Below are positions 37,095 through 57,096 of a stretch of DNA of 64,000 nt, piece by piece; position 1 is the stretch's first letter; the number at the start of each line of letters is the position of its first letter. Under the pieces are notes generated by a model. That model worked only from the letters and a program-made list of their open reading frames with translations. It made no database searches and was not told where the DNA came from. Source of the stretch: Candidatus Gottesmanbacteria bacterium (GTDB taxonomy: Bacteria; Patescibacteriota; Microgenomatia; UBA10105; UBA927); the NCBI GenBank assembly GCA_030679255.1, contig JAUXTO010000013.1:190189-254188 (forward strand), read 5' to 3'. The position numbers were made by a program, and so were the translations under genes.

Positions 37095-37514
37095 ATTGGT
37101 ATCCGGACGCTCGAGGGGATGGAAGACGAAAGCCTTTAATATCCCTTAGGAAAGTCCAGACAGCAGAATGCAGGGGAAGGAGTGTAAGCTCCTTGTCCGT
37201 CAGCTGACGGACCAGGTGTCCCGGTGTCGAAAGGCAACGGGAACGAGTCCTGAATTGACAGGATGAGAGAGCCACAGAGACGATCATCAACCTTTAGCCT
37301 AACGGGCTTGGTCGATGGGTGAAACGATGGTAATCCCACCCGCTGCAACCGGCGAATACACCGCCACGACGACGCATTCCGGAACCTCGCGACCTGCGGG
37401 GTGCGGTGACAAGTTTACGGGCATCGCGTCAAACGCGATTTGCCACGTTTGACGTGGCACTAGAGAAATGAGCGACTAAAAACAGAATCTGGCTTATGAG
37501 ATGCCAGTGTGCAC
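37091..37514 (+). ncRNA. rnpB: RNase P RNA (bacterial type)
   Basis: GGAAAGTCCAGAC (P4 5' strand), GGTAATCCCACCCGCTGCAACCGGCGAATA (P10/11-12 junction), ACAGAATCTGGCTTATGAG (P4 3' strand); 13-bp P1 between 37091-37103 and 37500-37512; extended -10 TGgTATAAT at 37075-37083. Confidence 0.6.
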
Positions 37515-43677: not shown

Positions 43678-43759
43678 AACGGCATTGTAGCAATACCAAA
43701 GAATAATTTATAGGAGTTTAAAGGAGTTTAAGGGAATCTAGAAAAAAATGAACGACTAG

Positions 43760-44656: not shown

Positions 44657-44761
44657 ACTCTCTATAGTATTACAGATATTACCACAGGGTTCAAGTCCAA
44701 CGCGATGCCAATCTACGAATGCATGCTAATGCTACGAATGAAGTCAACACAACTGCGAAGT

Positions 44762-45553
44762 TTAACTGGAAGCAGAGGAATATTGGGTAAGGGCGTAATG
44801 CCAGACCTTAAGACAAAGAAGAAGAAACAATAAGCCTAAGGCAATAGAAAAAAGCGTCATCCATGGGGATAATAGCCCCATGAGAGCTTTAGCAGGAAAT
44901 GTCATCATGACTCCGACGGGAATGACAAAGGTCATGATGCTACGCAGTGGCTCGTGATATACATCTGTAGGAATCCGCCCCATGCTGACAACATCCCGGA
45001 ATATCATAATGGCGTGATCCACTTCTGTAGCAAGAATCCCCAATGCTAACACAAGGATATGAAACCCGGTGGAGATAATAAGTCCGTTGATAAAAAGCAA
45101 TATATAAAATACAACATTCACCCCGTGGATATCTCCTAGTCTTCCTCCGGTATATATCACGGCGGCGATATACAGAGGAAGCATGCCTAAATCCAACGGA
45201 TCAGCTCCACCGACGAGTGCCCGCAGGAGCGGACTCATGGGTTTGACGAGGGCAAAATCAAAATCTCCGCTGACGATCAGCGGACGGAAACGGTATACTT
45301 CACGGAAAAAAAGCTGTGCTATCGTATCGACAAGGGAAAACGATAAATAGAAAAAAATCATTTGATGAGATGAGTACCCTGCGAGCGTTTCGGTCCTGGT
45401 AAATATGGTAATAAGAAACAGGAGAAAAAATAAGAAACGCAATAATTTTCCCACAAAAAATACTCCCGCATTAAACCGGCTGGTGAGCGAAATCATAAAT
45501 GAGCTTACCGTCAGTTTCCACCAAATCCGGATGTAGAGATTCAGACGTTTCAT
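44762..45553 (-). CDS. ABC-2 family transporter permease
   Basis: 6-TM ~260 aa, paralogue of the three neighbours. Confidence 0.55.
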   Translation of the reverse strand: MKRLNLYIRIWWKLTVSSFMISLTSRFNAGVFFVGKLLRFLFFLLFLITIFTRTETLAGYSSHQMIFFYLSFSLVDTIAQLFFREVYRFRPLIVSGDFDFALVKPMSPLLRALVGGADPLDLGMLPLYIAAVIYTGGRLGDIHGVNVVFYILLFINGLIISTGFHILVLALGILATEVDHAIMIFRDVVSMGRIPTDVYHEPLRSIMTFVIPVGVMMTFPAKALMGLLSPWMTLFSIALGLLFLLLCLKVWHYALTQYSSASS

Positions 45554-45555
45554 AG

Positions 45556-46350
45556 TTATTTCCCCTCAGCAGTATACGCGCGGAGTCCCCTGTTCCAAAC
45601 GATGACTGCCAACCACCATAATCCGGCGGTCCATACGAACCCAATCGAAAAACCCTGCAGTATTTCGATTGGCGTTAATTGCCCAAGATATACTTTGAGC
45701 GGAAAATAGATGAAATAGAAAAACGGAAGGCTTTTGGCTATGAGATAAAGGGGGCCGGACAGAATATCCAACGGAAATAAAGCACCGGTAAAAAACTCGG
45801 CGAACACAAACGAAAGGAACCGGGGTGCCCATACATCTGGAGTCCAAAAACCCATATACGAGATAAGGAGACTAAAATAAAAAAACAGTATCATGCCCAT
45901 GACGAGAGCGGCAAAAAAGAAAAGAATCATCACTATATCCGTCTGAATAAAAAGCTGCGGCCGGAGTAAAAAATAGAGCACGACAATTTCAAATACAGCA
46001 AAGAGAACATTTAATAATTTGTCGGCTACATCACGGCTCGCACAAAAACCTAAAAAATTCATGGGCCGCACAAGATAATTGGATAAACTCCCGCTCCTAA
46101 TATACTCCGCCACTTCCTGCGTCCGGGTCCCCATCACGAACGGGCGGACAAATGAGCTGAAGAGAACATACGTAAGCATCGCACCCTGCGAATATCCGAA
46201 AAGATTATTGTGTCCGGAAAAAAGTGCCCACCACATGAAATAGACGACGAGAAGCTGTACGACCAAACGCACACGCCAGAGAATAAAACTCAAGCGATAG
46301 GTGGCGTATTCATCTATGGTTCCCTTTATGATTTGTAAATAAACGTTCAT
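45556..46350 (-). CDS. ABC-2 family transporter permease
   Basis: 6-TM profile. Confidence 0.55.
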   Translation of the reverse strand: MNVYLQIIKGTIDEYATYRLSFILWRVRLVVQLLVVYFMWWALFSGHNNLFGYSQGAMLTYVLFSSFVRPFVMGTRTQEVAEYIRSGSLSNYLVRPMNFLGFCASRDVADKLLNVLFAVFEIVVLYFLLRPQLFIQTDIVMILFFFAALVMGMILFFYFSLLISYMGFWTPDVWAPRFLSFVFAEFFTGALFPLDILSGPLYLIAKSLPFFYFIYFPLKVYLGQLTPIEILQGFSIGFVWTAGLWWLAVIVWNRGLRAYTAEGK

Positions 46351-46447
46351 GCTCTGATCATACTATATCGCAAACCCGAATAAGACGGTGATAATAAAGC
46401 AGCTTTATTTCTTTACGCTTAGCGGTCATTTGCCAGAAGGAGTATGT

Positions 46448-46558
46448 ATGAGCACAATACAAAATCCTGTTTTATTTGCCTATACATTGGGATTCCTTTT
46501 TACGAGCATCTTGGTTCTCTATATATATCTTGATACTCGTAACGCAAGAAAAAATTAA
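46448..46558 (+). CDS. candidate 36-aa single-TM peptide
   Basis: AAGGAG SD 5 nt upstream; hydrophobic core, basic C-terminus; antisense to operon. Confidence 0.3.
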   Translation: MSTIQNPVLFAYTLGFLFTSILVLYIYLDTRNARKN

Positions 46559-46564
46559 ACTCCT

Positions 46565-46651
46565 ATGACATTGGAAAACATCGTCTATGTGCTTGCCGCA
46601 ATTTTCGGCGTCATAGCCGTCTATATCGTCTTCTTTAAAATGGGCCGATAA
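46565..46651 (+). CDS. candidate 28-aa single-TM peptide
   Basis: immediately downstream of previous; hydrophobic. Confidence 0.2.
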   Translation: MTLENIVYVLAAIFGVIAVYIVFFKMGR

Positions 46652-46709
46652 TGTATTGGGATCCCTCGACACTGAGCGTAGTCGAAGTGCTCAGGATGAC
46701 AGAAGTCTG

Positions 46710-47498
46710 TCAGCTACTCGCGCTCGTGTAGGAACGCAGGGCAAAACGCCAAAATGCACGGGAGAACGCAAACAATCCCACAGCCAATAGTCCTATGGTA
46801 ACGAGCTCGCCCCACCCCAAACGGCCCAGGAGTGCTTTTGTCGGGAGTGTGATAATAAGGGTGAGCGGAAATAGAAACAAAAATACGTATTGGCTCACCT
46901 GACGCATAATTTCCTGCGGGTACCGAGCCGCCCCGGTGATTGTGAACATAAGCTCAGCTAAATTATGAAGCCTGGTAAACCAAACGGTGAATGTGATGAC
47001 CATAAACCAAAGGGAATACAAGGTCACGAGTCCTAAAACCGCGAGTACCACAAAACCAGCGATCCGGGAAAAAGAAAGAGACATATGCATCATCGTAACA
47101 ATGTATATCGTATATCCAATCGCGATAATGGTCCGGGAAATACTCGCGTACCCAAACAACCAGAACGAAACAAGAAACTGTGAATCCATGGGCTTAACAA
47201 GGATGCTATCCAGTTGTCCATGATGAATAATTTCAGAAAACCGTTCAAAATTCTTGGAAAACTGCATATGAAAAAGACTTATGATAATACCGTATGCCCC
47301 GTTGAGAAGCAGCATCTCCTCCCGTTTCCATCCGAATATCATGGTGGATTTAGACGTAAGGAGCACAATTGAGTACAGGGAAAAACTCCCCCAAGCGAGA
47401 CTTGCGAGCATACTATTATAAAAATTTCCCCGGTAACCAGCGAGCATGGAAAAATTCATCTTTAATAGCATCCTGTATACGGAAAAATATCGCTTCAT
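46710..47498 (-). CDS. ABC-2 family transporter permease
   Basis: 6-TM profile. Confidence 0.55.
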   Translation of the reverse strand: MKRYFSVYRMLLKMNFSMLAGYRGNFYNSMLASLAWGSFSLYSIVLLTSKSTMIFGWKREEMLLLNGAYGIIISLFHMQFSKNFERFSEIIHHGQLDSILVKPMDSQFLVSFWLFGYASISRTIIAIGYTIYIVTMMHMSLSFSRIAGFVVLAVLGLVTLYSLWFMVITFTVWFTRLHNLAELMFTITGAARYPQEIMRQVSQYVFLFLFPLTLIITLPTKALLGRLGWGELVTIGLLAVGLFAFSRAFWRFALRSYTSASS

Positions 47499-47500
47499 AA

Positions 47501-48298
47501 TTATTGACCGACTCCTGTAAACCTTTTAATACCGTTTTTCCATATATGGAATAAACAAAAAACAAAAAATACAAACCAGGCTGTTTGAACACCCATAACA
47601 CGCAGGGATTCATGAAGTGTTAACGCTCCCTGCGCCGCTCGAATGGGGTAGTACGCCATATAGGAAAACGGCAAAACGTCAGCGACGAGACGCATTCCGT
47701 CCGGCAAAAAATTAACCGGAACCAGGTATCCGGCCAGTACGATTGACACGACGGTAGACAACTGCTGCAAACCACTATACTCAGTTATCCAAAGCGCAGA
47801 TAAACCCAGAATCATACTCCATAAAAAGGAAATCCCATAGGCAAGAATTACGATGGTTGCCGCAGTGACTATCCCCTGCCAGTCGGACACCAACCGGACG
47901 TTGATATGAAAAAATAGCATGCTGGCCACAAAAACAACTATGCCAAACGTTCCCTGAATAATTCTCCAGGGGATCTCCTCCAAAAACTTCGTTTTAAAAT
48001 AAGAAAATGGCCGCATGAGATGGGCGACTAATAAACCCTGCTTGATATCCCGGTATGCGATATCTTCATCCACATGAGAAGCGATAAATGACCCGGTAAT
48101 CATAAGCAGAAGATAATAGGTAGAAATATCCGCAAGGGTCATACCCCCGGGACTTATTCCTTCAGACTGTATGGATCCCTGCCAAAATAATAAATAGAGC
48201 CACACGTTGAGAAACGTAATGAGAAGCCACACCACTGAAAGACTACGAAGTTCAAAGGCATTTTGTAAATGAAGGAGAAAAATGCGGAAGTAGCGCAT
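47501..48298 (-). CDS. ABC-2 family transporter permease
   Basis: 6-TM profile; start at MRYFRIF. Confidence 0.55.
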   Translation of the reverse strand: MRYFRIFLLHLQNAFELRSLSVVWLLITFLNVWLYLLFWQGSIQSEGISPGGMTLADISTYYLLLMITGSFIASHVDEDIAYRDIKQGLLVAHLMRPFSYFKTKFLEEIPWRIIQGTFGIVVFVASMLFFHINVRLVSDWQGIVTAATIVILAYGISFLWSMILGLSALWITEYSGLQQLSTVVSIVLAGYLVPVNFLPDGMRLVADVLPFSYMAYYPIRAAQGALTLHESLRVMGVQTAWFVFFVFCLFHIWKNGIKRFTGVGQ

Positions 48299-48299
48299 A

Positions 48300-49274
48300 C
48301 TACTTTTTCTGGGTGAACACATCCCGGATGATGTCTTCGATATCCGGCTCCTCGATGTTCAGGTCATCGACCGGAAACTTCTGGAGGAGTTGGGCGGCAG
48401 CGACGTTGCTGGCACTTCGGGGGACCCGGATGACCGCTTTAGGAAAATTGTATGAAACGAGCTCGCCCACGGCTTCCAGTTTATCCGGCGCCACATATTC
48501 ATCCAAAACAATTGAAAGCACTTTATGTTTGGCAAATTTTTTGACTAAGCTATCCAGCTTCCCGTCATACAGAATCTTCCCGTGGTCGATAATGATCACC
48601 CGCCCTGCAAGCTGCTTGACGTCCTCCATATAATGGGATGTCAGAAGTATGGTAGATTTTTTCAGCTCGTTGTATTGTTTGATAAAATCCCGCATGTTTT
48701 TTTGCATGACGACGTCCAGTCCAATCGTCGGCTCATCGAGAAACAAGACCTTAGGCGAGTGGATAAGGGCCGCGATAAGCTCCATCTTCATGCGTTCGCC
48801 AAGGGATAGCTTACGGACCTGGACTTTCAGAAGTGCCTCAACATCGAGAAGTTCGACCAGGATCTGAAGTGTTTTCTTGTACTCGCCATCCTCTATTTCA
48901 TAAATTTCTTTATTGAGAAGAAACGTCTCCTGTGCGGGCAGATCCCACCAGAGTTGATTCTTCTGTCCCATGACGAGGGCAATTTGTTTAAGATAATTAT
49001 TTTTTCTATCAAACGGAGTAAACCCTAAGACCGAGACCGTTCCGCTTGTGGGATAGAGTAATCCGGAAAGACATTTAAGCGTCGTCGTCTTGCCGGCGCC
49101 ATTTGGCCCGATGAAGCCCACGAGCTCACCTTCATCGATATCAAATGAAATGTCGTCAACGGCCTTGACCGTCTGATATTTCCGATGAAAAAGTGAGCGC
49201 ACTGACCCCATGAACCCAGGTTCTTTCTCGTGAACCTGATAATATTTTTTTAAGTGAGAAAGGGAGATGACCAT
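48300..49274 (-). CDS. ABC transporter ATP-binding protein
   Basis: GPNGAGKTT Walker A, LSLGERMK signature, LDEPT Walker B. Confidence 0.8.
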   Translation of the reverse strand: MVISLSHLKKYYQVHEKEPGFMGSVRSLFHRKYQTVKAVDDISFDIDEGELVGFIGPNGAGKTTTLKCLSGLLYPTSGTVSVLGFTPFDRKNNYLKQIALVMGQKNQLWWDLPAQETFLLNKEIYEIEDGEYKKTLQILVELLDVEALLKVQVRKLSLGERMKMELIAALIHSPKVLFLDEPTIGLDVVMQKNMRDFIKQYNELKKSTILLTSHYMEDVKQLAGRVIIIDHGKILYDGKLDSLVKKFAKHKVLSIVLDEYVAPDKLEAVGELVSYNFPKAVIRVPRSASNVAAAQLLQKFPVDDLNIEEPDIEDIIRDVFTQKK

Positions 49275-49374
49275 ACATTGAGTATACCCGGTAGTAGAAC
49301 TTCGACACAAGCGCGGAAGCGCTTGCTTATTGTTTGCTACGCAAACAATGTCGAAGTTTCACTACGGGGATACC

Positions 49375-49416
49375 AAAAAGAGACGCCCCGCAGTACGGGG
49401 AACGTCTCTTTAAAAT
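49375..49416 (-). terminator. hairpin terminator downstream of hupB
   Basis: AAAGAGACG-(CCCCG cagta CGGGG)-ACGTCTCTTT with flanking A/T runs. Confidence 0.5.
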
Positions 49417-49427
49417 TTCTCTTCCTT

Positions 49428-49700
49428 TTACCGGACAACTTTCTTCAGTGCTTTGCCAGCGGTAAATCCCGGTGTTTTTCGCGCCGGAATATTGATCGCG
49501 GCTCCAGTCTGCGGATTCCGTCCTGTTCTGGATTTCCTCGAACGCACCATGAATGTTCCGAATCCTGTGACGACCACTTTGTCACCTTTTTTGAGTGAAT
49601 CCGTGATCGAACCAAACACAGCTACCACTGCTTCACGAGCGGCTTTGGCTGTGAGACTCGCTTTTTTTGCAACGACTTCAATGAGATCTGCTTTTGTCAT
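49428..49700 (-). CDS. hupB: DNA-binding protein HU
   Basis: MTKADLIEVVA...GFGTF...RNPQTG; GGAGGTG SD. Confidence 0.85.
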   Translation of the reverse strand: MTKADLIEVVAKKASLTAKAAREAVVAVFGSITDSLKKGDKVVVTGFGTFMVRSRKSRTGRNPQTGAAINIPARKTPGFTAGKALKKVVR

Positions 49701-49780
49701 TTTCTATTCACCTCCAGTCGGGCAGAGGGTTAGAACAAGTAGAAAATTTTTTCGTCCCGCCCTGGCGGGATCTATGAGGC

Positions 49781-49809
49781 AATGTAGAAGAAATGGAGCG
49801 GTATGTCAA
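49781..49809 (-). promoter_or_regulatory. sigma70-like promoter TTGACA-17-TACATT for hupB
   Basis: seen on minus strand upstream of a 5'UTR hairpin. Confidence 0.45.
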
Positions 49810-49886
49810 TACATCAATTCAAAAAATTAAAAGTCGAAAGTCATAAAGTCAAAAGTCCATAACGTTATAAAAGTGAAATGTGGAGT

Positions 49887-51434
49887 TCATTTGGCAATCT
49901 CAACAACTCTGAGTTCACGCACTACCGTCACTTTTATCTGGCCGGGGAACGTGAGTTTAGCCTGAATTTCATCTTTAATTTCTGTGGCCATGATGGTTGC
50001 GGCTGCGTCATCCACCATACCCGGATCGACCATTACCCGGAGTTCCCGTCCGGCCGAAAAAGCAAAACATTCACGGACTCCCTTTTTGGATTTCGCAATT
50101 TCCTCTATATCTTTGAGTCTCTTCACATACCCTTCAATATCCTCATGTCTGGCTCCGGGTCGGCTCCCGGATATAGCGTCAGAGATATAGACAAGCATGG
50201 ATTCAAGCGAGGTAAACGGCGTGTCCTCATGATGTTGGGCCACGCAATCGATGACTTTGGGCGGCAATCCATACTTTTTGAGAACAGTCACCCCAAGTTC
50301 GACATGGCTCCCCTCTCCGTCCGGAACAACTTTACCTAAATCATGGAGAAGACACCCCAAACGCACAATGTTTGCATCCGCGCCGACCTCTTGGGCGAGG
50401 GCAATACCAATTTTCGTTTCCTCAAGCGTGTGGGCAATCATATTTTGCCCATAACTGGTCCGATACTTGAACCTACCAAGGAGTGCTACAATCGGAGCCG
50501 GGAGATTGTAAACACCCACGGCGTGGCAAAGCTTCTGGCCTTCTTCAAACATGATACGCTCGACTTCTTTCCTGACCTGAACCACGATTTCCTCAATCCT
50601 GCCGGGCTGTACCCGACCATCCCGCATGAGCCGTTCGAGGGAAACGCGCGCAACCTCCCGACGCACAGGATCAAAACACGAAAGCCGGATGACGCCCTCT
50701 TCATCAAGGTCAACGTCAACCCCCGTGGCCGTCTCAAACGCACGGATATTCCTTCCCTCTTTCCCGATGATTCTCCCCTTGACGTCATCATCGGCAATCT
50801 TGACGACCGAGACCGTATATTCAGCGACATAATCCGTCGCCCCATGACGCATGGCGTCCACAAGGATCTCCCGCGCTTTGGTTTCGGCCTCCTCATGCGC
50901 GCGATGCTCCCCTTCACGAATCTCGCGGGCGACATCCTCACGTACTCGGGCTTTCACATCTTCAAGGAGCTGGTTACGTGCTTCATCACGGGTGAGATGC
51001 GCAGCTTTTTCTAGCTTAGCCAGTGAATCCTGTTTAATTTTCTCAATATCGCCTAACTTCGTCCGGGCATCTTCTTCTAATGTAACGAGCCGTTTTTCAC
51101 GTTCATCGAGACTTCCCTCGTGCCGGTCAATACTTTCGCTTCGGCGTCTGAGGTCTTCCTGCGCGTCACGCCTCAACCGCAATGCTTCATCTTTGGCCTC
51201 CACAACAATTTCCCGTGCTTGTGCTTGAGCGATCCGCAATTGAGCTTGTGCGTCTTCAATTTCTTTGCGGTTGACCACAGGAACAGCTGGGGGAGGTGCA
51301 GGCGACGGGACTGGCGCTATCTTTGGAGATTTGTCGGTAACAAGAGTAGGTTTCTGATCAACTTTTTGTTTAACACTCCTTGCGGGTTTTCTGGATTTTA
51401 CTAAGCCGGATAAGGTTTTGAGTACATCAAACAT
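49887..51434 (-). CDS. rny: ribonuclease Y
   Basis: KH domain GKEGRNIRAFE, HD domain HSLEVA-like LLHDLGK. Confidence 0.85.
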   Translation of the reverse strand: MFDVLKTLSGLVKSRKPARSVKQKVDQKPTLVTDKSPKIAPVPSPAPPPAVPVVNRKEIEDAQAQLRIAQAQAREIVVEAKDEALRLRRDAQEDLRRRSESIDRHEGSLDEREKRLVTLEEDARTKLGDIEKIKQDSLAKLEKAAHLTRDEARNQLLEDVKARVREDVAREIREGEHRAHEEAETKAREILVDAMRHGATDYVAEYTVSVVKIADDDVKGRIIGKEGRNIRAFETATGVDVDLDEEGVIRLSCFDPVRREVARVSLERLMRDGRVQPGRIEEIVVQVRKEVERIMFEEGQKLCHAVGVYNLPAPIVALLGRFKYRTSYGQNMIAHTLEETKIGIALAQEVGADANIVRLGCLLHDLGKVVPDGEGSHVELGVTVLKKYGLPPKVIDCVAQHHEDTPFTSLESMLVYISDAISGSRPGARHEDIEGYVKRLKDIEEIAKSKKGVRECFAFSAGRELRVMVDPGMVDDAAATIMATEIKDEIQAKLTFPGQIKVTVVRELRVVEIAK

Positions 51435-51460
51435 AGTAATATGTGAGTTTAATGAGAGGA

Positions 51461-51496
51461 AAAAGCACAGATCAAAACCCCTTGCTTATAGCAAGG
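51461..51496 (-). terminator. terminator hairpin CCTTGCT-ATA-AGCAAGG plus GGTTTTGATC downstream of recX
   Basis: seen in sequence. Confidence 0.5.
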
Positions 51497-51586
51497 TTAT
51501 GTGTGTAGGAGAGAATGATGTGAGCGTGACTATTTTCATGGATTCCTACAATATAATGCTTTCTCTTCGGACAAAAACTCTATCTA

Positions 51587-52072
51587 CTATTGTACCCTAC
51601 CGCCCACCACCTCGTCAATGACCCTGCGGATAGTATCTGCGTCAAAACCACGCCGACCGAGGAATCCGTAGATCTTCTTTTTTTGCTCAATCTTAGGCAA
51701 TGTTTGCCACCGTTCTAACTTTTTAGCCAGGGCCTGGCGGGCTAATCCCACCTCATCTGGCTGTTTGATTTCAACTGCAACTCCCTTGGCTTTCAATTCC
51801 TGAAGAATAAGTCGGTTTCCTTTAGGCTTATGGGATTGGCGTTGATCCACCCACCACGCGGCGAATTTCTCATCATTGACGTAATCAAGCTCACGCAGAC
51901 GGGCGATGACGCGATCAAGAATAGGAAACTGGATCCTCGCGTCTCGCGCGGGGATGACAGATAAACGAGAAAGTTTTTTTGCCAAATACGCTCTCATTTC
52001 CTTTTCGCTCCGGGGACGGAAGGAGACGAAGTGAAACGAAGCATCGAGAAGTTTTTGGTAGAGATCCTCCAT
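51587..52072 (-). CDS. recX: recombination regulator RecX
   Basis: RecX three-helix repeat family; start set at MEDLY since upstream codons lie in a nonamer tandem repeat. Confidence 0.65.
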   Translation of the reverse strand: MEDLYQKLLDASFHFVSFRPRSEKEMRAYLAKKLSRLSVIPARDARIQFPILDRVIARLRELDYVNDEKFAAWWVDQRQSHKPKGNRLILQELKAKGVAVEIKQPDEVGLARQALAKKLERWQTLPKIEQKKKIYGFLGRRGFDADTIRRVIDEVVGGRVQ

Positions 52073-52128
52073 AAGAAATACTACCAATACTACCAATAAT
52101 CAAATACTACCAATACTACCAAAACAAA

Positions 52129-53166
52129 TTACTCTTCCTCCTCCACCCCCATGGCAACTTTCGGGTGGGCAGCTCCGGTCTTGACGGCTTTCCAGATAGC
52201 GTCGGTGATTTCCTTCGTGAGTTTTCCGTTTTCTTTTAGGAAAAGCTTCGCCGCTTCCCTCCCTTGTCCGAGCATCTGGGTGCCGTACTTGAGAAACGCG
52301 CCGGATTTTGTCAAAATATTGAGTTCCAATCCGACGTCAATCAAGCCTCCCTCTTTGGAGATGCCGTCATGCATGACGTCAAACTCCGCGACCCGAAACG
52401 GCGGCGAGACTTTATTTTTTACGATCCGCACGCGGTGACGGCTCCCAATCACGCGGTCTCCATCTTTGAGACTCTCGATTTTGCGTGAGTCCATCCGGAC
52501 GCTCGCATAAAACTTGAGGGCCATCCCTCCGGTCGTCGTTTCGGGATTACCGAACATCACACCGATTTTTTGGCGCAACTGATTGGTAAATATGACAATC
52601 GTTTTGGATTTGGAAATGACTGCAGTGAGCTTGCGAAGAGCCTGGGACATGAGCCGGGCATGGACGCCCATCATGCTATCGCCCATCTCGCCTTCGATTT
52701 CCGCACGCGGCACCAACGCTGCTACTGAATCGATAACGATCACGTCAATGCCACCGCTGCGGATGAGGGTCTCCGCTATCTCCAGACCCTGCTCGCCGGT
52801 ATCCGGTTGAGAAATGAGCAGATCATCAAGTTTGACGCCCAAAATCTCCGCCCATTGGGGATCGAGGGCATGTTCGGCGTCGATAAACGCGGCTACCCCG
52901 CCAGCCTTCTGCGCTTCAGCAATCGTCGAGAGACATACCGTCGTTTTGCCCGATGCCTCGGGGCCGTATATTTCTACAATCCTGCCGCACGGCAGGCCTC
53001 CAACACCAAGTCCCAAATCTAAAGGAAGAATGCCTGTGGAAATAACGTCGATGGCTAGTTTTCCTGCATTTTGCTCACCCAACATCATGATCGAACCTTT
53101 TCCGTATTGTTTCTCGATCTGGTCCATGGCGAGGCGAATGGCGGCGAGTTTTGGGTCTGTAGCCAT
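52129..53166 (-). CDS. recA: recombinase RecA
   Basis: GPEASGKTT Walker [13 protein letters not shown]1/L2 loops. Confidence 0.9.
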
Positions 53167-53271
53167 AATGATCTCCTTATGAGGCAGGAATATACTATTG
53201 AAGAATTTATGCAATTCTTACACAATAAATGATAGAATACAAGAGATCAACAAATCTTCATGAAAATTTGG

Positions 53272-53330
53272 TCGGGGTGTGGCGTAATTGGTAGCGGCAC
53301 GTCAAACGTGCCAGTCGCGTTTGACGCGAC
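53272..53330 (+). other. tRNA-like 5' fragment (acceptor start CGGGGTG, D-loop TAATTGGTAG, CAA hairpin, long-arm hairpin; no T-arm)
   Basis: manual inspection; does not fold as a complete tRNA. Confidence 0.3.
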
Positions 53331-53358
53331 GCATTCGGTTGGCACATGGAAATTCTGT

Positions 53359-53431
53359 CGGGGTGTAGCTCAGTTGGTAGAGCACACGGCTGGGGGTCGT
53401 GTGGTCGCAGGTTCAAATCCTGTCACCCCGA
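53359..53431 (+). tRNA. tRNA-Pro (anticodon GGG)
   Basis: manual fold: acceptor CGGGGTG/CACCCCG + A73, D GCTC/GAGC, anticodon loop CTGGGGG, T-loop TTCAAAT; CCA not encoded. Confidence 0.8.
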
Positions 53432-53641
53432 CTGAATTTCCAGTGTAAAGGGTTCGAGCGGTTGGCAGTTTCCCGCGGAGCGGGATTAACTGACAGTAAA
53501 TACTCGCTATGGCTCGTAAACTGTCAGTTGAACAAGTCTGCCCACCCCGACCAAAAACTGATCTCTATCTGGGTTGTTATGACACACACCTCAAAGACCG
53601 ATATCAATATTTAAATTACAAATATACTGAAATTATCGCTT

Positions 53642-54718
53642 ATGCGTAAGTTTATTGTTTTTATAACTGGCTTAGTATTAGTAATAATTGGGTTAGTTAC
53701 TCTTTTTGAAGCAGTTATTATTCCGATGGTAATGCCATATACACTATTTTTAATAATTACTGGAATTTATCTCATAAAAAAATATTCATACCGTGTGGCA
53801 GTTGGCATCATCATTCTAGTCGTAATAATCGGAGCGTATGTTTATTATATGAGCAATCCAAATATAGGAGCATATAAAGGAGTAAAAATAATTAAAACTG
53901 ATCTAGGACCAAAAATAGAAGAAAACCAAGCGACAAATGGGACGGGGGTATATGTTATTCCAGATTATATCAACGGATTACATATATTACTTACACGTGG
54001 AAATAGACTGTACGGCATAAATAGTAATACCGGATACAAAAAAACAAATGTTGTTAGTACGATATTAGAAATACAAGACGAAGGATATATTGGAAACAAT
54101 ATCGGAAAATTTATGTTAGGGTGTGATCAACTATCCCACACATGTTTTATTCTTGATTTTAGATATAACTATTCTTTAAATTATGCTAATCTACCATATT
54201 ATTCTCCAGTAAAAATTATTAGTTACAATTATTTTACGCAAATATTCTCAACGATATACACATTTCAATCAGGACTACAAGAACCCCGACTCATAAACAA
54301 AATAATAAAATACCCAAGCGCCGCGACAATAATTATTAATTCCGACTTGGATAATTTATATTATAACGTTATTTTCCAAACCGCACAGGTGAACAACATT
54401 AACAAAATTCCCGATTTACAAGGAAATACAGAATTAACATTTTTAGTAAAGGATCAAAACTATTTCACAAATAATAAATATCCTGGTCTTATCTCTGGAG
54501 ATTCTACATGGACAGTTGTGACGAAATCAGAATGTGCATCAGGTGGTATGGGCGGATGTGACAATGTTGTCTCAATTTTTAAAAATGACAACCTTAAAAA
54601 TGTATTCAACTGTCATAACTGTTCCGTTTTCTATATGGGCAAGTTACAAAATAAGCTATTATTATTGATTCAAGAAAATTTAAAATTTAAGATAGGAGAA
54701 ATTGAGGAACAAGAGTAA
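53642..54718 (+). CDS. hypothetical membrane protein, strongly AT-rich
   Basis: ~3 N-terminal TM segments, Asn/Tyr/Ile-rich; compositionally foreign. Confidence 0.45.
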   Translation: MRKFIVFITGLVLVIIGLVTLFEAVIIPMVMPYTLFLIITGIYLIKKYSYRVAVGIIILVVIIGAYVYYMSNPNIGAYKGVKIIKTDLGPKIEENQATNGTGVYVIPDYINGLHILLTRGNRLYGINSNTGYKKTNVVSTILEIQDEGYIGNNIGKFMLGCDQLSHTCFILDFRYNYSLNYANLPYYSPVKIISYNYFTQIFSTIYTFQSGLQEPRLINKIIKYPSAATIIINSDLDNLYYNVIFQTAQVNNINKIPDLQGNTELTFLVKDQNYFTNNKYPGLISGDSTWTVVTKSECASGGMGGCDNVVSIFKNDNLKNVFNCHNCSVFYMGKLQNKLLLLIQENLKFKIGEIEEQE

Positions 54719-54892
54719 TAAAAATCGCGCGCGGGGCGTCAAACGTCCCTGCCACATTTGACTGTGGTGCAAAAAAAGAATCCGGAAGCGCGGCGGGCCG
54801 ACCCTTCGACAAGCTCAGTGTAAAGGCGCCGCCCAGACAATGCGAGGCCCGCGAAGATGGCCGACCGCGCCCTGCAGTAGCTTTAGCGGAGG

Positions 54893-55003
54893 AGGGGCTA
54901 ACAGCTTTGAAATTCGATTCTAACTTTTTGATATAACCCGACTTAAAAACTGCATTAATTTGGATTGTTCTGACAATGTTTTCAAGGACCGTCCCTAAAA
55001 ATA
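54893..55003 (+). repeat. direct repeat, left copy (~93% identical to 56338-56453)
   Basis: alignment by eye; on minus strand it ends in RIFRDGP-stop. Confidence 0.8.
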
Positions 55004-55188
55004 CGAAATATTTACTTTTACGATAAACGAAATATCAAACCGTTTTTGAATATACTATATTTATGAAACATGATTAGTTGTCAAGAATCAAAAAAACACC
55101 GCTTAACAAGCTAATTTGTATATAAATTTTGATTTGAATAGTAAAATATGCTACTATAGCTATGGTCGCGATGCAAGTCGCGCCCATC

Positions 55189-55229
55189 AAAAACGGATCT
55201 CTACTGGAAATAGGTGAGATCCTTTTTTG
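55189..55229 (-). terminator. bidirectional terminator GGATCTC-loop-GAGATCC with A5/T6 flanks
   Basis: overlaps DUF3800 stop codon. Confidence 0.55.
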
Positions 55230-55983
55230 TAACTTCGGGGAAAAATTTGAGACCAATCCCGTCTACGATATTCCCTTTGCGGTGTAATTTGGGATGCGTG
55301 ACGTCGTGATACCGCCAGTAATCCTCTTTTTTCTTGTTGTACTCAAACACATGGTACACAGGATAGCAGTAAAGATCAGTAATCTGGATGCCTACTGTTT
55401 TGTCGGATGTGGAAAATAAAACGCGCTCAATAATATTAGGGCACTTTTGCCAAAACCCATTTTCATTCCAACGAAGCAAGCTATGAATGCGATCAAGTTC
55501 CGGTCCTATATAGCTTTTTTCCACTTGACCCTCACGTGGATCAATAATACAAATGCCGAATGCATTTTGTTCTTTAAGATACATTTGGAATCGCTCCATC
55601 AAGAATATATAGGCAATCTCGTACGGATTTTGCGATGGATACTGTTTCCAATACCCAACTTTATCAATCACGACAGAAAAAACTGTCACTGGGATTTTTT
55701 TAAGAAAAGTAGCAACGTCTACTTCTAGCTCATCATATTTTTGTCGATCGTTGAGCTTAATCGGTGAAGACTGTGCAAGATCTGGATTGGCATATCGAAG
55801 AAAATTTGATTTGAACTCAACTTCAGGATTTTGATAGTAACTCAGTTTAATGTCACGAAACGAACTTTCGATAGCCACTTTATCACTCTCATTGATTACG
55901 CAACCTGTAAGGACTAAAAATTTCTTTCCTTTTTGTGAAAGAGAAATCGTATCGCCGGACTCATCAATATACATGATCTGCAT
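55201..55983 (-). CDS. DUF3800 family protein
   Basis: MQIMYIDESGD N-terminus characteristic of DUF3800; GAGGG SD; start trimmed from the longer ORF. Confidence 0.55.
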   Translation of the reverse strand: MQIMYIDESGDTISLSQKGKKFLVLTGCVINESDKVAIESSFRDIKLSYYQNPEVEFKSNFLRYANPDLAQSSPIKLNDRQKYDELEVDVATFLKKIPVTVFSVVIDKVGYWKQYPSQNPYEIAYIFLMERFQMYLKEQNAFGICIIDPREGQVEKSYIGPELDRIHSLLRWNENGFWQKCPNIIERVLFSTSDKTVGIQITDLYCYPVYHVFEYNKKKEDYWRYHDVTHPKLHRKGNIVDGIGLKFFPEVTKKDLTYFQ

Positions 55984-56337
55984 AATTACCCTCAAGTATA
56001 CCACCAAATTTTTGCGATAAAAATGGCGGCTCTGCCGACCCCGCCACTCGGGTGGTACCTTCCAAAAAAAGATCAACCGTGGAAAAGACAACTGAGTTGC
56101 CCGACGCTTCGTATGGGCGGCTCTTTCGCACAAAGGTGGGGTCGCCGCCCTGCCTGCCGGCAGGCAGGCATCCTTTTTGAGCCGGGTGGGTGGGCTGATT
56201 GGAATCAGGACAGACTGATTTTGTGTTATTATAAATCTTACCGCACGCGAATCCGCCAGCAGGCAGATGAACGGAACGCGCGCTAAAAAAACGGAATCAA
56301 GGCCGCGTTTACCCTGAGCGAAGTCGAGGGGAAGCGA

Positions 56338-56453
56338 CCGAACTAATAGTTTTGAAATTCGGTTCTAACTTTTTGATATAACCCGACTTAAAAACTGCAT
56401 TAATTTGGATTGTTCTGACGCTCTTTTCAAGGACCATCCCTAAAATAGGGACA
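56338..56453 (+). repeat. direct repeat, right copy; contains the 3' end of the HAD-IB gene
   Basis: see left copy. Confidence 0.8.
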
Positions 56454-57089
56454 CTTCTCAACAATTTTGTTCAATACTTGAAACAAATCCCCAGAGTTCA
56501 AACATTGGTCAGAATAAATTTTTAAATTATCATCAGCATTCAATGCAATTCTATATCCTACTTTTTCAAAGATGGGAATATCTGATCTTGAATCTCCAAC
56601 TGCAATTATTTCAGACATCTCGATATTTTTTTCTTTACTTAGTTTTTCAAGAATAAGTACCTTATCGCCACCTGTAAGAACATTAAGCATTCTGCCTGTA
56701 TGAATTCCGTTAATAAACTCATGTTCTGAACCACTGATAAAATCGAATCCAAAACTTTTTTTAAAATATTCACTTGCGAATATTGGACCTATGGAAGTAA
56801 TGCCAACCATAAATCCTACCTGTTTTAATTTATCAACGGTTTCTTTTATATTACCCATCCTTGGTATTTCCGAAGTCCATTCATCAAATTGTTTTTTACT
56901 TGTATCCTTTAGTATTTTTGCGTATCTATTAGCAATCTCATAATCATCAATCTTATGATTTTTGTACAGATTTTCTAAATCTATTGCTTTATCCTCAACC
57001 CCAAGTTTTTTAACATAATACTGAAGACACGTTGTTCCCATAGTAAGCGTACCATCCAGATCAAATGAAACTAATTTATAGTTTCTCAT
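56427..57089 (-). CDS. HAD-IB hydrolase (phosphoserine-phosphatase-like)
   Basis: LVSFDLDGTLT motif I, GDSRSD motif IV; AT-rich. Confidence 0.6.
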   Translation of the reverse strand: MRNYKLVSFDLDGTLTMGTTCLQYYVKKLGVEDKAIDLENLYKNHKIDDYEIANRYAKILKDTSKKQFDEWTSEIPRMGNIKETVDKLKQVGFMVGITSIGPIFASEYFKKSFGFDFISGSEHEFINGIHTGRMLNVLTGGDKVLILEKLSKEKNIEMSEIIAVGDSRSDIPIFEKVGYRIALNADDNLKIYSDQCLNSGDLFQVLNKIVEKCPYFRDGP

Positions 57090-57096
57090 GCTTAAT

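What the first reader, a model, noticed from the sequence alone, without database searches (positions are those of the whole stretch)
53272..53553. tRNA-like 5' fragment upstream of tRNA-Pro with an orphan CACCCCGACCA 3' end downstream
Positions 53272-53330 start with the same 7 nt (CGGGGTG) as tRNA-Pro. They contain a tRNA-Leu-like D-loop (TAATTGGTAG), a perfect hairpin GGCACGT-CAA-ACGTGCC that can be read as an anticodon arm (loop GTCAAAC, anticodon CAA), and a perfect long-arm hairpin GTCGCG-TTTGA-CGCGAC. No T-arm or 3' acceptor follows. An intact tRNA-Pro comes next. About 110 nt further, at 53543-53553, lies CACCCCG-A-CCA, a perfectly complementary 3' acceptor strand with discriminator and encoded CCA, preceded by a 7-bp inverted repeat (CTGACAG...CTGTCAG). 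Possible readings are a disrupted or split tRNA gene, an attL/attR-type scar from integration of the adjacent island into a tRNA 3' end, or a tRNA-derived structured element.
Basis: seen in the sequence. Interest (0 to 1): 0.55.

Follow-up and report, generated by a model that had tools for sequence, protein, structure and literature searches.

The report
Broken tRNA-Pro gene enclosing intact one
The "tRNA-like fragment" and the "orphan 3' end" are the two ends of a second proline tRNA gene, cut into four pieces by three insertions, one of which is the complete working proline tRNA gene; it is most likely a gene fossil at a recombination hot spot, not a split leucine tRNA.

Summary
The sequence features are real. 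Window 53273-53553 (Candidatus Gottesmanbacteria, next to recA) is not a tRNA-Leu(CAA) relic. It holds four colinear, non-overlapping pieces. Joined, they give a 76-nt perfect cloverleaf tRNA-Pro(GGG), 69/76 identical to the uninterrupted "type B" tRNA-Pro genes of relatives L005 and L015.

Three self-folding insertions interrupt it:
- **I1**, 35 nt, in the D stem. It is a copy of a double-hairpin repeat also found in this genome's RNase P RNA gene and in an intergenic spot.
- **I2**, 108 nt, in the anticodon loop. It is the complete "type A" tRNA-Pro(GGG) with a paired leader and trailer.
- **I3**, 62 nt, in the T loop between positions 55 and 56.

About 15 related loci each carry one uninterrupted tRNA-Pro(GGG), of type A or B. 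These are often flanked by GIY-YIG or HNH-repeat genes.

Best reading (0.6): a disrupted resident allele that now serves only as leader and trailer of the nested functional gene. No group I intron, bulge-helix-bulge motif, integrase or att repeat was found. A spliced or multi-piece tRNA cannot be excluded without RNA data.

The parts
53215..53243 (+). Conserved block TTCTTACACAATAAATGATAGAATACAAG with an extended -10-like TGATAGAAT. It is the likely promoter of the tRNA transcription unit. It could also or instead serve the divergent recA.
   Evidence: The same block (TGNTAGAAT/TGGTAAAAT) precedes the tRNA-Pro gene in L002, L004, L010, L013, L003, L007 and L058. The simple sigma-70 scan did not call it. 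Promoter function is inferred.
53259..53272 (+). Outer leader CATGAAAATTTGGT. Its last 6 nt pair with the outer trailer ACCAAA. It is 11/14 identical to the inner leader.
   Evidence: Direct repeat D2 (81% over 36 nt) and inverted repeat I15 (13/13).
53273..53295 (+). Outer piece 1 of the type B tRNA-Pro(GGG): acceptor 5' strand, U8 G9, D stem 5' strand, D loop AATTGGTA, and the first two bases (G22 C23) of the D stem 3' strand.
   Evidence: Piecewise match to the L005/L015 tRNA; ARAGORN cloverleaf of the joined pieces.
53296..53330 (+). Insertion I1: double-hairpin palindromic repeat GGCACG-TCAAA-CGTGCC A GTCGCG-TTTGA-CGCGAC, sitting inside the D stem 3' strand. The boundary is ambiguous by 1 nt.
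   Evidence: Two other copies in the window. It is closest to the reverse complement of the RNase P copy; the four substitutions make two compensatory pairs, plus one indel. The element is present in some relatives' RNase P genes and absent in others.
53331..53342 (+). Outer piece 2: GC (24-25), A26, anticodon stem 5' strand TTCGG, and TTGG (32-35). An alternative reading is TTCG + a 7-nt templated fill-in GTTGGCA + CATGG.
   Evidence: The 9-mer CGGTTGGCA occurs at 53334 and again at 53458 (read).
53343..53358 (+). Start of insertion I2: inner leader CACATGGAAATTCTGT, which pairs with the inner trailer.
   Evidence: Inverted repeat I2 (19 nt, 95%); fold.
53359..53431 (+). Intact type A tRNA-Pro(GGG), the functional gene, nested in the anticodon loop of the outer gene. 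CCA is not encoded.
   Evidence: ARAGORN; Rfam RF00005 at 66.3 bits; 68-73/75 identical to the type A genes of L002, L004, L010 and L013.
53432..53450 (+). End of insertion I2: inner trailer CTGAATTTCCAGTGTAAAG, homologous to the native trailers of type A genes in relatives.
   Evidence: Compare L002 CCAAAATTCAAGTGAAAGG and L010 AAGAAAATCTTTCCATTTGG. The boundary with piece 3 is ambiguous by 1 nt within a G run.
53451..53470 (+). Outer piece 3: GGT (36-38), anticodon stem 3' strand TCGAG, variable loop CGGTT, T stem 5' strand GGCAG, and T54 T55.
53471..53532 (+). Insertion I3 in the T loop between positions 55 and 56.
   Evidence: Single copy in the window. It folds as a closed module. L015 has a different 30-nt double hairpin at exactly the same position, in a 3' fragment with identical flanks.
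53533..53553 (+). Outer piece 4: CAAGT (56-60), T stem 3' strand CTGCC, acceptor 3' strand CACCCCG, discriminator A, and CCA. ACCAAA pairs with the outer leader.
   Evidence: The same trailer GACCAAAA follows the tRNA in L002 and the 3' fragment in L015.
37423..37458 (+). Sister copy of the I1 double hairpin (ATCGCG-TCAAA-CGCGAT TT GCCACG-TTTGA-CGTGGC) inside the RNase P RNA gene, in the P15-17 region.
   Evidence: RNaseP_bact_a spans 37096-37511 at 56.8 bits, E = 8e-17. The element is absent from the RNase P genes of L048, L049 and L050 and present in L044.
54733..54767 (+). Third, more diverged copy of the double hairpin (GGGGCG-TCAAA-CGTCCC TG CCACA-TTTGA-CTGTGG), intergenic, in the low-GC island.
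   Evidence: direct repeat D4, 78%.

Best explanation
Window 53273-53553 is a second tRNA-Pro(GGG) gene, called 'type B' here. It sits where relatives carry their single tRNA-Pro(GGG), downstream of a conserved promoter-like block beside recA.

Three insertions have broken it into four colinear pieces:
- a 35-bp double-hairpin palindromic repeat in the D stem;
- a 108-bp cassette in the anticodon loop, at about position 35/36, made of a complete 'type A' tRNA-Pro(GGG) with its own leader and trailer;
- a 62-bp hairpin-rich insert in the T loop, at 55/56.

The inner type A gene is the working tRNA. The outer pieces are most likely a fossil. They are co-transcribed as a structured 86-nt leader and 122-nt trailer and discarded when the tRNA ends are processed. 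This step is inferred from what RNase P and 3'-end processing enzymes generally do.

Inferred history: the locus is a hot spot where tRNA-Pro alleles are exchanged, next to genes that look like homing endonucleases. A break in the resident type B gene was patched by illegitimate, microhomology-guided insertion of an allelic type A segment. Small palindromic repeats were also inserted into the gene.
For: **Shown**
1. The four pieces are colinear, do not overlap and are complete. Joined, ARAGORN folds them into a 76-nt cloverleaf with all four stems paired (three of the 21 pairs G-U), anticodon GGG, U33, G37, GG in the D loop, T loop TTCAAGT, A73 and CCA.
2. The joined gene is 69/76 identical to the uninterrupted tRNA-Pro(GGG) of L005 and L015, against 54/75 to the inner gene.
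3. All related loci read carry one uninterrupted tRNA-Pro(GGG). Type A: L002, L004, L010, L013, L058-62. Type B or B': L005, L015, L003, L014, L051. L007 has a more divergent gene. L003 and L010 share the same upstream flank yet carry different tRNA types, so alleles are swapped at this site.
4. I1 belongs to a repeat family: three copies in 64 kb. The RNase P copy is missing from L048, L049 and L050 and present in L044. I1 differs from the reverse complement of the RNase P copy by two compensatory pairs and one indel.
5. In L015, a T arm interrupted at the same T-loop position, plus the acceptor 3' strand and ACCAAAA, sits 7 nt after an intact type B gene. It has no 5' partner of its own, so it is plainly a remnant there.
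6. The inner trailer is homologous to the native type A trailers of L002 and L010. The inner leader is 11/14 identical to the locus's own leader. The cassette therefore looks like an allelic copy of this same locus.
7. The junctions show microhomology: CATGG is shared by the type B anticodon loop (C-ATGGGGT) and the leader (TTCATGG), and GG(G)T is shared at the right junction. There is also a 9-nt local duplication, CGGTTGGCA.
8. GIY-YIG genes lie directly upstream of the type B gene in L005 and L015. ORFs start directly after the B' or divergent genes of L003, L014, L051 and L007; the HNH_repeat match comes from L014's precomputed Pfam annotation and my scan of it. The recX-rny segment is inverted at this tRNA in L058-62.
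9. No group I intron hit appears in 53150-53700 at E <= 10, and no terminator-like site lies within the unit.

**Inferred**
- The order of events.
- That the outer gene is non-functional.
- That nucleases were involved.
Against: - The outer pieces show none of the decay expected of an old pseudogene. The T arm, the acceptor strands and the variable loop are identical to L005 and L015.
- Under one reading, pair 31-39 has changed on both sides, from C-G to G-U, and stays paired.
- All three inserts fold on their own and bring the flanking pieces together. A fold with the cloverleaf enforced costs only 8.8 kcal/mol more than the MFE of -135.5. This is what removable intervening sequences would look like.
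- The same T-loop position is interrupted in two genomes by different inserts. Their first hairpins have the same frame (TCCCGC-GGA-GCGGGA against TCGTCC-AGA-GGACGA), which could mean a conserved structure.
- The nested arrangement was seen in only one genome, so no comparative test of selection was possible.
- No endonuclease gene is present in the window next to the locus.
- No RNA data were available.
Confidence: 0.6

Rival explanations
1. The outer gene is functional. It would be a bacterial tRNA-Pro(GGG) with three intervening sequences that are not group I introns (D stem, anticodon loop 35/36, T loop 55/56). These would either be excised and the pieces ligated by an unknown pathway, or the RNA would work as a multi-piece (split) tRNA held together by the insert helices after RNase P and 3' processing release the nested tRNA.
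For: - The joined pieces make a perfect cloverleaf with an encoded CCA.
- Each insert is a closed, self-folding module. The fold compatible with the cloverleaf lies within 8.8 kcal/mol of the MFE.
- Pair 31-39 is kept as G-U after changes on both sides.
- The T-loop insert sits at the identical position in L015, with identical exon flanks.
- Patescibacteria are known to carry tRNA introns at 35/36 (PMC13011429).
Against: - No group I or group II signature, and I2 has only 35 nt that are not tRNA.
- No bulge-helix-bulge geometry at any junction (read from the fold). Bacteria are not known to have the archaeal splicing endonuclease (my own knowledge).
- I1 is a dispersed repeat also found in the RNase P gene and in intergenic DNA.
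- A redundant intact gene with the same anticodon lies inside it.
- The L015 fragment has no 5' half.
- No relative has the same arrangement.
Confidence: 0.12
2. The outer pieces have been co-opted as a structured leader and trailer. The 13-bp outer helix, the hairpins and the 19-bp inner helix would form a processing or stability scaffold for the nested pre-tRNA, for example as a double-strand-specific RNase entry site. The RNA would then be a tRNA-derived structured element rather than a tRNA or pure junk.
For: - Very stable fold, z = -7.6.
- Both the outer and the inner acceptor stems are extended by leader-trailer pairing.
- No internal terminator.
- In relatives the same tRNA is fused directly to downstream ORF starts (L003, L014, L051, L007, L058), so tRNA-linked processing of co-transcripts seems to be used at this locus.
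Against: - No conservation of the scaffold in any relative.
- Leader-trailer pairing of this length is not seen in L002, L004, L010 or L013.
- Stability follows automatically from the palindromic inserts and the tRNA halves.
Confidence: 0.12
3. An attL/attR-type scar. The low-GC island at 53600-58000 would have integrated into the tRNA-Pro 3' end by site-specific recombination, and the orphan 3' end would be the displaced att repeat.
For: - The island (30-40% GC against about 50%) starts right after the orphan 3' end.
- The anticodon loop and T loop are the classic crossover sites of tRNA-targeting integrases (my own knowledge: Williams 2002).
- L015 has a tandem 3' fragment after an intact gene.
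Against: - The orphan matches the type B T arm, not the adjacent intact type A gene; they share only CACCCCGAC.
- The matching 5' pieces lie upstream of the intact gene, not across the island.
- There is no tRNA-derived repeat at the far end of the island.
- There is no integrase among the island ORFs: no hit, DUF3800, HAD, EamA, SNase.
Confidence: 0.08
4. A split or disrupted tRNA-Leu(CAA), with the GGCACGT-CAA-ACGTGCC hairpin as the anticodon arm.
For: The D loop AATTGGTA resembles tRNA-Leu. The loop GTCAAAC has U33 and a purine at 37 (read).
Against: - The two hairpins are one repeat unit with copies in the RNase P gene and in intergenic DNA.
- Removing the unit restores the type B tRNA-Pro D stem exactly.
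- ARAGORN with introns allowed finds no tRNA-Leu.
Confidence: 0.01
5. An assembly artefact that merges reads of a type A strain and a type B strain.
For: The data are metagenomic, both allele types exist in the clade, and the arrangement was seen in only one genome.
Against: - The Logan assembly L001 gives the identical 12.8 kb.
- The repeats at the junctions are at most 10 nt, too short to mislead a de Bruijn assembler.
- A nested, exactly complementary split of one gene is not a typical chimera.
Confidence: 0.04

Closest known systems
Palindromic repeat elements that insert into RNA and protein genes (Rickettsia palindromic elements; REP/BIME-type repeats). From my own knowledge: Ogata et al. 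2000, Science.
   Same: A short, hairpin-forming, dispersed repeat, with 3 copies in 64 kb. It is found inside structured-RNA genes (RNase P RNA, tRNA) and in intergenic DNA. Copies keep stem complementarity through compensatory changes. It is present in some related genomes and absent in others.
   Different: It is only about 35 nt long and built as two tandem hairpins with complementary loops (TCAAA/TTTGA). No transposase or RAYT gene was identified, no target duplication was seen, and the copy number in the whole genome is unknown. Membership in any named family was not established.
Disrupted tRNA genes of Archaea and Cyanidioschyzon: multiple-intron, split and permuted tRNAs (PMC4390854, PMC3728597, PMC3978253).
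   Same: The tRNA coding sequence is interrupted at several non-canonical positions (D arm, anticodon loop, T loop). The pieces reconstitute a perfect cloverleaf.
   Different: Those introns are defined by bulge-helix-bulge motifs cut by the splicing endonuclease. No such motif is present here, the host is a bacterium, one insert is a dispersed repeat, and another is a whole tRNA gene.
Group I introns in tRNA anticodon loops of Patescibacteria, including position 35/36 (PMC13011429).
   Same: The same phylum and about the same position in the anticodon loop. Standard tRNA finders miss the interrupted gene.
   Different: The insert has no group I core (no Rfam hit at E <= 10). It is only 108 nt, 73 of which are a tRNA. 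The two other inserts lie outside the anticodon loop.
Free-standing homing endonucleases acting on tRNA gene regions (phage T4 SegB, a GIY-YIG enzyme; PMC2330249).
   Same: GIY-YIG or HNH-repeat genes lie immediately beside the tRNA-Pro(GGG) gene in relatives. Alternative tRNA alleles occur within the same flanks, which is the pattern expected from nuclease-driven gene conversion.
   Different: No nuclease activity or target site is known for these proteins. None is encoded next to the locus in this window. The link to the breakage is an inference.
tRNA-targeted genomic islands (att sites in the anticodon loop, T loop or 3' end).
   Same: A low-GC island abuts the gene's 3' end, and the interruptions fall in the anticodon loop and T loop.
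   Different: There is no integrase and no flanking direct repeat of the tRNA 3' part. The two halves flank a 108-bp cassette, not the island.

Membership tests
tRNA (RF00005) - inner gene | The covariance model score exceeds the gathering threshold, with a complete cloverleaf. | tested here: met
   66.3 bits against a gathering score of 29, model positions 1-71. ARAGORN calls tRNA-Pro(GGG).
tRNA-Pro(GGG), type B - outer gene as an interrupted gene or pseudogene | The pieces are colinear, complete and non-overlapping, and when joined give a cloverleaf with anticodon GGG. | tested here: met
   ARAGORN on the joined 76 nt.
tRNA-Pro(GGG), type B - outer gene as an interrupted gene or pseudogene | Sequence homology to uninterrupted genes at the orthologous locus. 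| tested here: met
   69/76 identity to L005 and L015, against 54/75 to the inner type A gene.
tRNA-Pro(GGG), type B - outer gene as an interrupted gene or pseudogene | A mature RNA is produced (functional gene) or not produced (pseudogene). | not testable with these tools
   No transcript data were available.
   The two hairpins are one dispersed repeat unit. Removing it restores the tRNA-Pro D stem.
Group I intron in a tRNA | A conserved catalytic core (P3-P9), detectable by covariance model. | tested here: not met
   No Intron_gpI hit in 53150-53700 at E <= 10 or in the whole window at E <= 0.05. The inserts are 35, 108 and 62 nt long.
Archaeal-type (BHB) tRNA intron | Two 3-nt bulges separated by a 4-bp helix at the exon-intron junctions. 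| tested here: not met
   I inspected the junctions in the constrained fold. I1 and I3 abut the exon bases directly as hairpins. I2 is flanked by an asymmetric 4 x 8 nt internal loop. No dedicated BHB search program was run.
Integrase-mediated island integration into a tRNA (att scar) | A direct repeat of the tRNA 3' segment at both island borders. | tested here: not met
   The repeat finder on 53150-58500 shows no such repeat. Exact CACCCCGAC occurs only at 53424 and 53543.
Integrase-mediated island integration into a tRNA (att scar) | A tyrosine or serine recombinase gene in the island. | tested here: not met
   Pfam on the five island-region ORFs gave no hit, DUF3800, HAD, EamA and SNase. 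Smaller ORFs were not scanned.
Dispersed palindromic repeat (REP/RPE-like) - insert I1 | Several copies per genome with a conserved hairpin structure. | tested here: met
   Three copies in 64 kb against 0.02 expected, with compensatory stem differences.
Dispersed palindromic repeat (REP/RPE-like) - insert I1 | Insertion polymorphism between related genomes. | tested here: met
   The RNase P RNA genes of L048, L049 and L050 lack it. The window and L044 have it at the same site.
Dispersed palindromic repeat (REP/RPE-like) - insert I1 | An associated mobilising enzyme (RAYT or transposase), or target-site hallmarks. | not tested
   The window's ORFs were not scanned systematically. Only two filled and empty site pairs are available; both share GC / (G)CTAG flanks.
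Homing-endonuclease-driven allele replacement | A nuclease gene adjacent to the exchanged segment, and alternative alleles within identical flanks. | tested here: inconclusive
   GIY-YIG lies beside type B in L005 and L015 (E = 1e-5 and 7e-10). HNH_repeat lies beside type B' in L014 (E = 1e-9). L003 and L010 share flanks but differ in tRNA type. No such gene lies beside the window's locus, and cleavage specificity is unknown.

The most novel reading that the evidence does not exclude
A bacterium expresses a tRNA from a gene interrupted at three non-canonical sites (D stem, anticodon loop 35/36, T loop 55/56) by small self-folding intervening sequences that are neither group I/II introns nor BHB introns. 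One of them carries another complete tRNA. Release of the nested tRNA by RNase P and 3' processing would leave either a spliced tRNA-Pro or a multi-piece tRNA-Pro held together by the insert helices. The same double-hairpin modules in the RNase P RNA gene would then be a general class of intervening sequences in CPR structured-RNA genes.
Probability: 0.1. Interest if true: 0.9.

Novelty: new variant of a known kind. Interest (0 to 1): 0.5.

Why it matters
- **Annotation.** In Patescibacteria, sequences that look like tRNA fragments can be whole genes broken by short inserts. Here one tRNA gene lies nested inside another with the same anticodon. Tools that count tRNAs to judge genome completeness will misread such loci.
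- **A candidate new repeat family.** A roughly 35-nt double-hairpin repeat sits inside essential structured-RNA genes, the RNase P RNA gene and a tRNA gene. I found no description of such insertions in Patescibacteria RNase P RNA. It may be a CPR counterpart of the Rickettsia palindromic elements.
- **A turnover hot spot.** The recA-proximal tRNA-Pro(GGG) locus shows allele swaps, neighbouring GIY-YIG or HNH-repeat genes, an inversion and an island. It is a natural system for studying nuclease-driven tRNA gene replacement.
- **If the outer gene were expressed.** That would be the first bacterial tRNA with multiple non-self-splicing interruptions.

Tried and rejected
- **ARAGORN with introns.** Run on 53200-53620 with introns allowed (up to 300 and 3000 nt) and lowered thresholds, it finds only the inner tRNA.
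- **Rfam in E-value mode on the region.** The only hits are weak and driven by the inner tRNA: YrlA 14.9 bits, tmRNA_permuted 14.2, Chlorobi-1 12.4. I rejected all three as chance.
- **Protein search with the spurious 62-aa ORF over the locus.** This was meant to find sister loci. It returned only ORFs lying over ordinary type A tRNA genes.
- **Metagenome scan for the split T arm.** It gave one locus, L015.
- **Viral-contig scans.** I scanned for the type B 3' end, for the 9-bp inverted repeat CGTCAAACG...CGTTTGACG, and for the hairpin GCCACGTTTGACGTGGC. All hits were chance matches in coding DNA.
- **A second 'copy' of the hairpin in L044.** It lies in miaA coding sequence and is a chance 13-mer.
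- **Copies of I3 or of the inner leader elsewhere in the window.** None found.
- **An att repeat at the far end of the island.** None found.
- **L017.** It has an N-gap at the locus and is uninformative.
- **L011, L012, L016 and L052.** These contigs end before the tRNA region.
- **The kissing-loop idea for the TCAAA/TTTGA loops.** It is not supported as a conserved feature, because L044's first hairpin has the loop CGTAC.
Full report
**1. The observation**

ARAGORN and Rfam find one tRNA here, tRNA-Pro(GGG) at 53359-53431/2, at 66.3 bits.

The repeats are not chance. GTCGGGGTGT occurs exactly only at 53271 and 53357 in the whole 64 kb. CACCCCGAC occurs exactly only at 53424 and 53543. The outer strands pair over 13/13 nt, TTTGGTCGGGGTG / CACCCCGACCAAA. 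The 281 nt fold at -135.5 kcal/mol, z = -7.6. A Logan assembly of SRR13727518 (L001) is identical to window 42129-54947.

**2. Organism and locus**

The gene next door, on the minus strand, is recA (52129-53166), followed by recX, rny and the HU gene. The RecA protein is 100% identical to a Candidatus Gottesmanbacteria MAG protein, and its nearest relatives are all Gottesmanbacteria/Patescibacteria.

**3. What the fragments are**

I fetched related recA/recX loci. Where the contig reaches the site, each carries one uninterrupted tRNA-Pro(GGG). These genes come in two sequence types (alignment A2).
- Type A is found in L002, L004, L010, L013 and L058-62. It is the window's inner gene, at 68-73/75 identity.
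- Type B is found in L005 and L015. A variant, B', with unusual D and T loops, is found in L003, L014 and L051. L007 carries a more divergent gene.

The L005 gene is CGGGGTGTGGCGCAATTGGCTAGCGCATTCGCATGGGGTGCGAACGGTTGGCAGTTCAAGTCTGCCCACCCCGA. It matches the window's outer sequence in pieces:

| Segment | Coordinates | Length |
|---|---|---|
| Piece 1 | 53273-53295 | 23 nt |
| Insert I1 | 53296-53330 | 35 nt |
| Piece 2 | 53331-53342 | 12 nt |
| Insert I2 | 53343-53450 | 108 nt |
| Piece 3 | 53451-53470 | 20 nt |
| Insert I3 | 53471-53532 | 62 nt |
| Piece 4 | 53533-53553 | 21 nt |

Joined, the four pieces give a 76-nt sequence that ARAGORN folds as tRNA-Pro(GGG). All four stems are paired (three of the 21 pairs are G-U), and it has U33, G37, T loop TTCAAGT, A73 and CCA. 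It is 69/76 identical to the L005 and L015 genes, against 54/75 to the inner gene.

The 'anticodon arm (CAA)' plus 'variable arm' are insert I1. The missing T arm is split around I3. The orphan CACCCCGACCA is the true 3' end of this outer gene.

Boundaries are ambiguous by 1-2 nt where G or GC runs occur. The anticodon region also has a second reading: TTCG + GTTGGCA (7 nt, part of a 9-mer CGGTTGGCA that recurs at 53458) + CATGG. ARAGORN accepts that reading too, with a C-U mismatch at pair 31-39.

**4. The inserts**

*I1.* This is GGCACG-TCAAA-CGTGCC A GTCGCG-TTTGA-CGCGAC. The pattern CGTCAAACG-N(4-30)-TTTGAC occurs at three sites in the window against 0.02 expected.
- The second copy, at 37423-37458, lies inside an RNase P RNA gene that scores below Rfam's gathering threshold (37096-37511, class A, 56.8 bits, E = 8e-17), in the P15-17 region.
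- The third copy, at 54733-54767, is intergenic.
- I1 is closest to the reverse complement of the RNase P copy. The four substitutions form two compensatory pairs, and there is one indel.

I fetched the RNase P RNA genes of relatives through the neighbouring ABC-F gene. L048, L049 and L050 read ...TTTACGGGC|CTAGAG... with no such module. The closest relative, L044, has it at the same site with a different first hairpin. The module is thus an insertion that is present in some genomes and absent in others. It is a dispersed palindromic repeat, not part of a tRNA.

Perfect tandem hairpins are enriched in the window generally: 6 observed against about 0.45 in shuffles.

*I2.* This is CACATGGAAATTCTGT + the type A tRNA + CTGAATTTCCAGTGTAAAG. 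Its leader and trailer pair over 19 nt at 95%.
- The trailer is homologous to the native type A trailers of L002 and L010.
- The leader is 11/14 identical to the locus's own leader upstream of piece 1 (direct repeat D2).
- The cassette therefore looks like an allelic copy of this very locus, inserted into the resident gene's anticodon loop.
- The junctions show microhomology: CATGG, and GG(G)T.

It is single-copy in the window.

My one metagenome scan for a split T arm found L015. There, an intact type B gene is followed after 7 nt by TTGGCAGTT[TCGTCC-AGA-GGACGA TCAGCC-TCT-GGCTGA]CAAGTCTGCCCACCCCGACCAAAA. This is the same interruption point (55/56) with identical flanks but a different 30-nt double hairpin, and it has no 5' half of its own. 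In L015 it is clearly a remnant.

**5. Context**

A conserved block with an extended -10-like TGNTAGAAT precedes the tRNA in all loci. In the window it lies at 53215-53243, so piece 1 sits where the tRNA normally starts. No terminator-like site lies inside the unit.

The locus is highly variable.
- L003 and L010 share the upstream flank but carry different tRNA types.
- GIY-YIG genes lie directly upstream of type B in L005 and L015 (Pfam). For L005 I replaced an in-frame TGA with W in the query.
- ORFs start immediately after the B' or divergent tRNA genes in L003, L014, L051 and L007. The HNH_repeat match comes from L014's precomputed Pfam annotation and my scan of it.
- In L058-62 the recX-rny segment is inverted and recX starts directly after the tRNA.
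- In the window, a low-GC island (53600-58000) begins right after piece 4. It has no integrase among its ORFs and no tRNA-derived repeat at its far end.

**6. Mechanism**

The following is shown.
- A complete type B tRNA-Pro(GGG) coding sequence is interrupted three times.
- One insert is a dispersed repeat.
- One insert is a full allelic type A gene with its flanks.
- Relatives carry single uninterrupted genes of either type.

The rest is inferred. The resident type B allele was broken and then patched by illegitimate, microhomology-guided insertion of a type A segment. The break may have been made by the kind of nuclease encoded beside this gene in relatives, by analogy with T4 SegB acting on a tRNA gene region (PMC2330249). 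Palindromic repeats were also inserted into the gene. The inner gene supplies tRNA-Pro(GGG). The outer pieces are transcribed as its leader and trailer and removed during end maturation. I put this at 0.6.

**7. Rivals**

*Functional interrupted or multi-piece tRNA (0.12).*
- For: the pieces are intact, and pair 31-39 has changed from C-G to G-U. All inserts fold on their own, and a fold with the cloverleaf enforced reaches -126.7 against the MFE of -135.5 kcal/mol. L015 shares the T-loop insertion site. Patescibacteria are known to have introns at 35/36 (PMC13011429).
- Against: there is no group I core and no BHB geometry. I1 is a dispersed repeat, a redundant gene lies inside, the L015 fragment lacks a 5' half, and the arrangement is not conserved in any relative.

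*Co-opted processing scaffold (0.12).* Stable leader-trailer helices exist, but no relative conserves them.

*att scar of the island (0.08).* The orphan is not a copy of the adjacent intact gene's 3' part, and there is no integrase or distal repeat.

*Assembly artefact (0.04).* A second assembly agrees, and the junction repeats are at most 10 nt.

*tRNA-Leu(CAA) (0.01).* Contradicted, as shown in section 3.

**8. Comparison with known systems and novelty**

The closest analogues are:
- palindromic repeats that insert into RNA and protein genes (Rickettsia palindromic elements; my own knowledge);
- disrupted tRNA genes of Archaea and red algae (PMC4390854, PMC3728597);
- group I introns at 35/36 in Patescibacteria (PMC13011429);
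- homing-endonuclease-associated turnover of tRNA genes (PMC2330249);
- tRNA-targeted genomic islands.

The defining features of group I introns, BHB introns and att scars were tested and not met. The repeat-element features (multiple copies, conserved structure, insertion polymorphism) were met, but no mobilising enzyme was sought.

A tRNA gene nested in the anticodon loop of another with the same anticodon, together with a double-hairpin repeat inside the RNase P RNA gene and a tRNA gene of a CPR bacterium, is a new variant of known kinds. My literature searches turned up no such case, and none on insertions in Patescibacteria RNase P RNA.

Interest is 0.5. The finding is informative for annotation and for mobile-element biology. 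It would rise to very high interest only if RNA data showed the outer gene to be expressed as a tRNA.

Noticed in passing
window 37096-37511 (+): An RNase P RNA gene (class A) that scores only 56.8 bits against a gathering score of 100, so default Rfam annotation misses it. It lacks P12 and carries the 36-nt double-hairpin insert in the P15-17 region.
   Followed up: yes
L044 944-1435 (+), alignment A1 columns 241-280 and 441-504: The RNase P RNA gene of the closest relative has two further insertions of 39 and 64 nt, the second with an internal tandem repeat GCGATA..GCTACGGCGAG. Its Rfam score drops to 25 bits. Short insertions in structured-RNA genes seem common in this clade.
   Followed up: partly
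L003 889-965, L014 2373-2447, L051 642-716, L007 4804-4879, L058 2304-2377 (all minus strand): The tRNA-Pro(GGG) gene is fused directly to the start codon of the next ORF (...CCCCGAC(A|C)ATG). That ORF carries an HNH_repeat match in L014 (the only one scanned), has a similar N-terminus in L003, L051 and L007, and is recX in L058. This suggests a tRNA-mRNA co-transcript whose mRNA 5' end is made by tRNA 3' processing. The B' tRNAs lack G18G19 and the T-Psi-C sequence in their D and T loops.
   Followed up: partly
window 26964-26993, inside ORF 25298-27022 (-): A perfect 30-nt double hairpin, CCAGCC-ATA-GGCTGG TCCGCC-TCT-GGCGGA, lies in frame (10 codons) near the N-terminus of a 574-aa ORF. Its second hairpin is 13/15 identical to that of the L015 T-loop insert (TCAGCC-TCT-GGCTGA). 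It may be a palindromic element inserted in frame into a protein-coding gene.
   Followed up: no
window 54898-55000 and 56343-56445: A 103-nt direct repeat (93% identity) flanks the DUF3800 ORF (55201-56133, minus strand) inside the low-GC island. GC-rich patches at 54770-55000 and 56000-56400 interrupt the AT-rich island. No Rfam hit was found there.
   Followed up: no
window 53600-58000: A low-GC island (30-40% GC against about 50%) lies between the tRNA locus and an SNase-family gene. Its ORFs are an unknown membrane protein, DUF3800, HAD and EamA. In L010 the SNase gene lies close to the tRNA without this island.
   Followed up: partly
window 23642-23810 (-): A T-box leader match below threshold (34.7 bits against a gathering score of 93, E = 5e-4).
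   Followed up: no
L005 about 1780-1960 (-): The GIY-YIG ORF directly upstream of the type B tRNA has an in-frame TGA (…EDAM*REKFF…). This could be a pseudogene, a sequencing error or a recoded codon.
   Followed up: no
L014 2620-2949 and L051 862-1191: A gene for a 23S_rRNA_IVP family protein (four-helix bundle), usually found inside 23S rRNA intervening sequences, sits free-standing between recA and the tRNA-Pro gene.
   Followed up: no
L002 4646-4730 (-): About 85 nt with an imperfect long inverted repeat (TTATTGGTT...AACCAATCACCAATAA) separates the conserved promoter block from the type A tRNA. This is another lineage-specific insertion in the leader of this locus.
   Followed up: no
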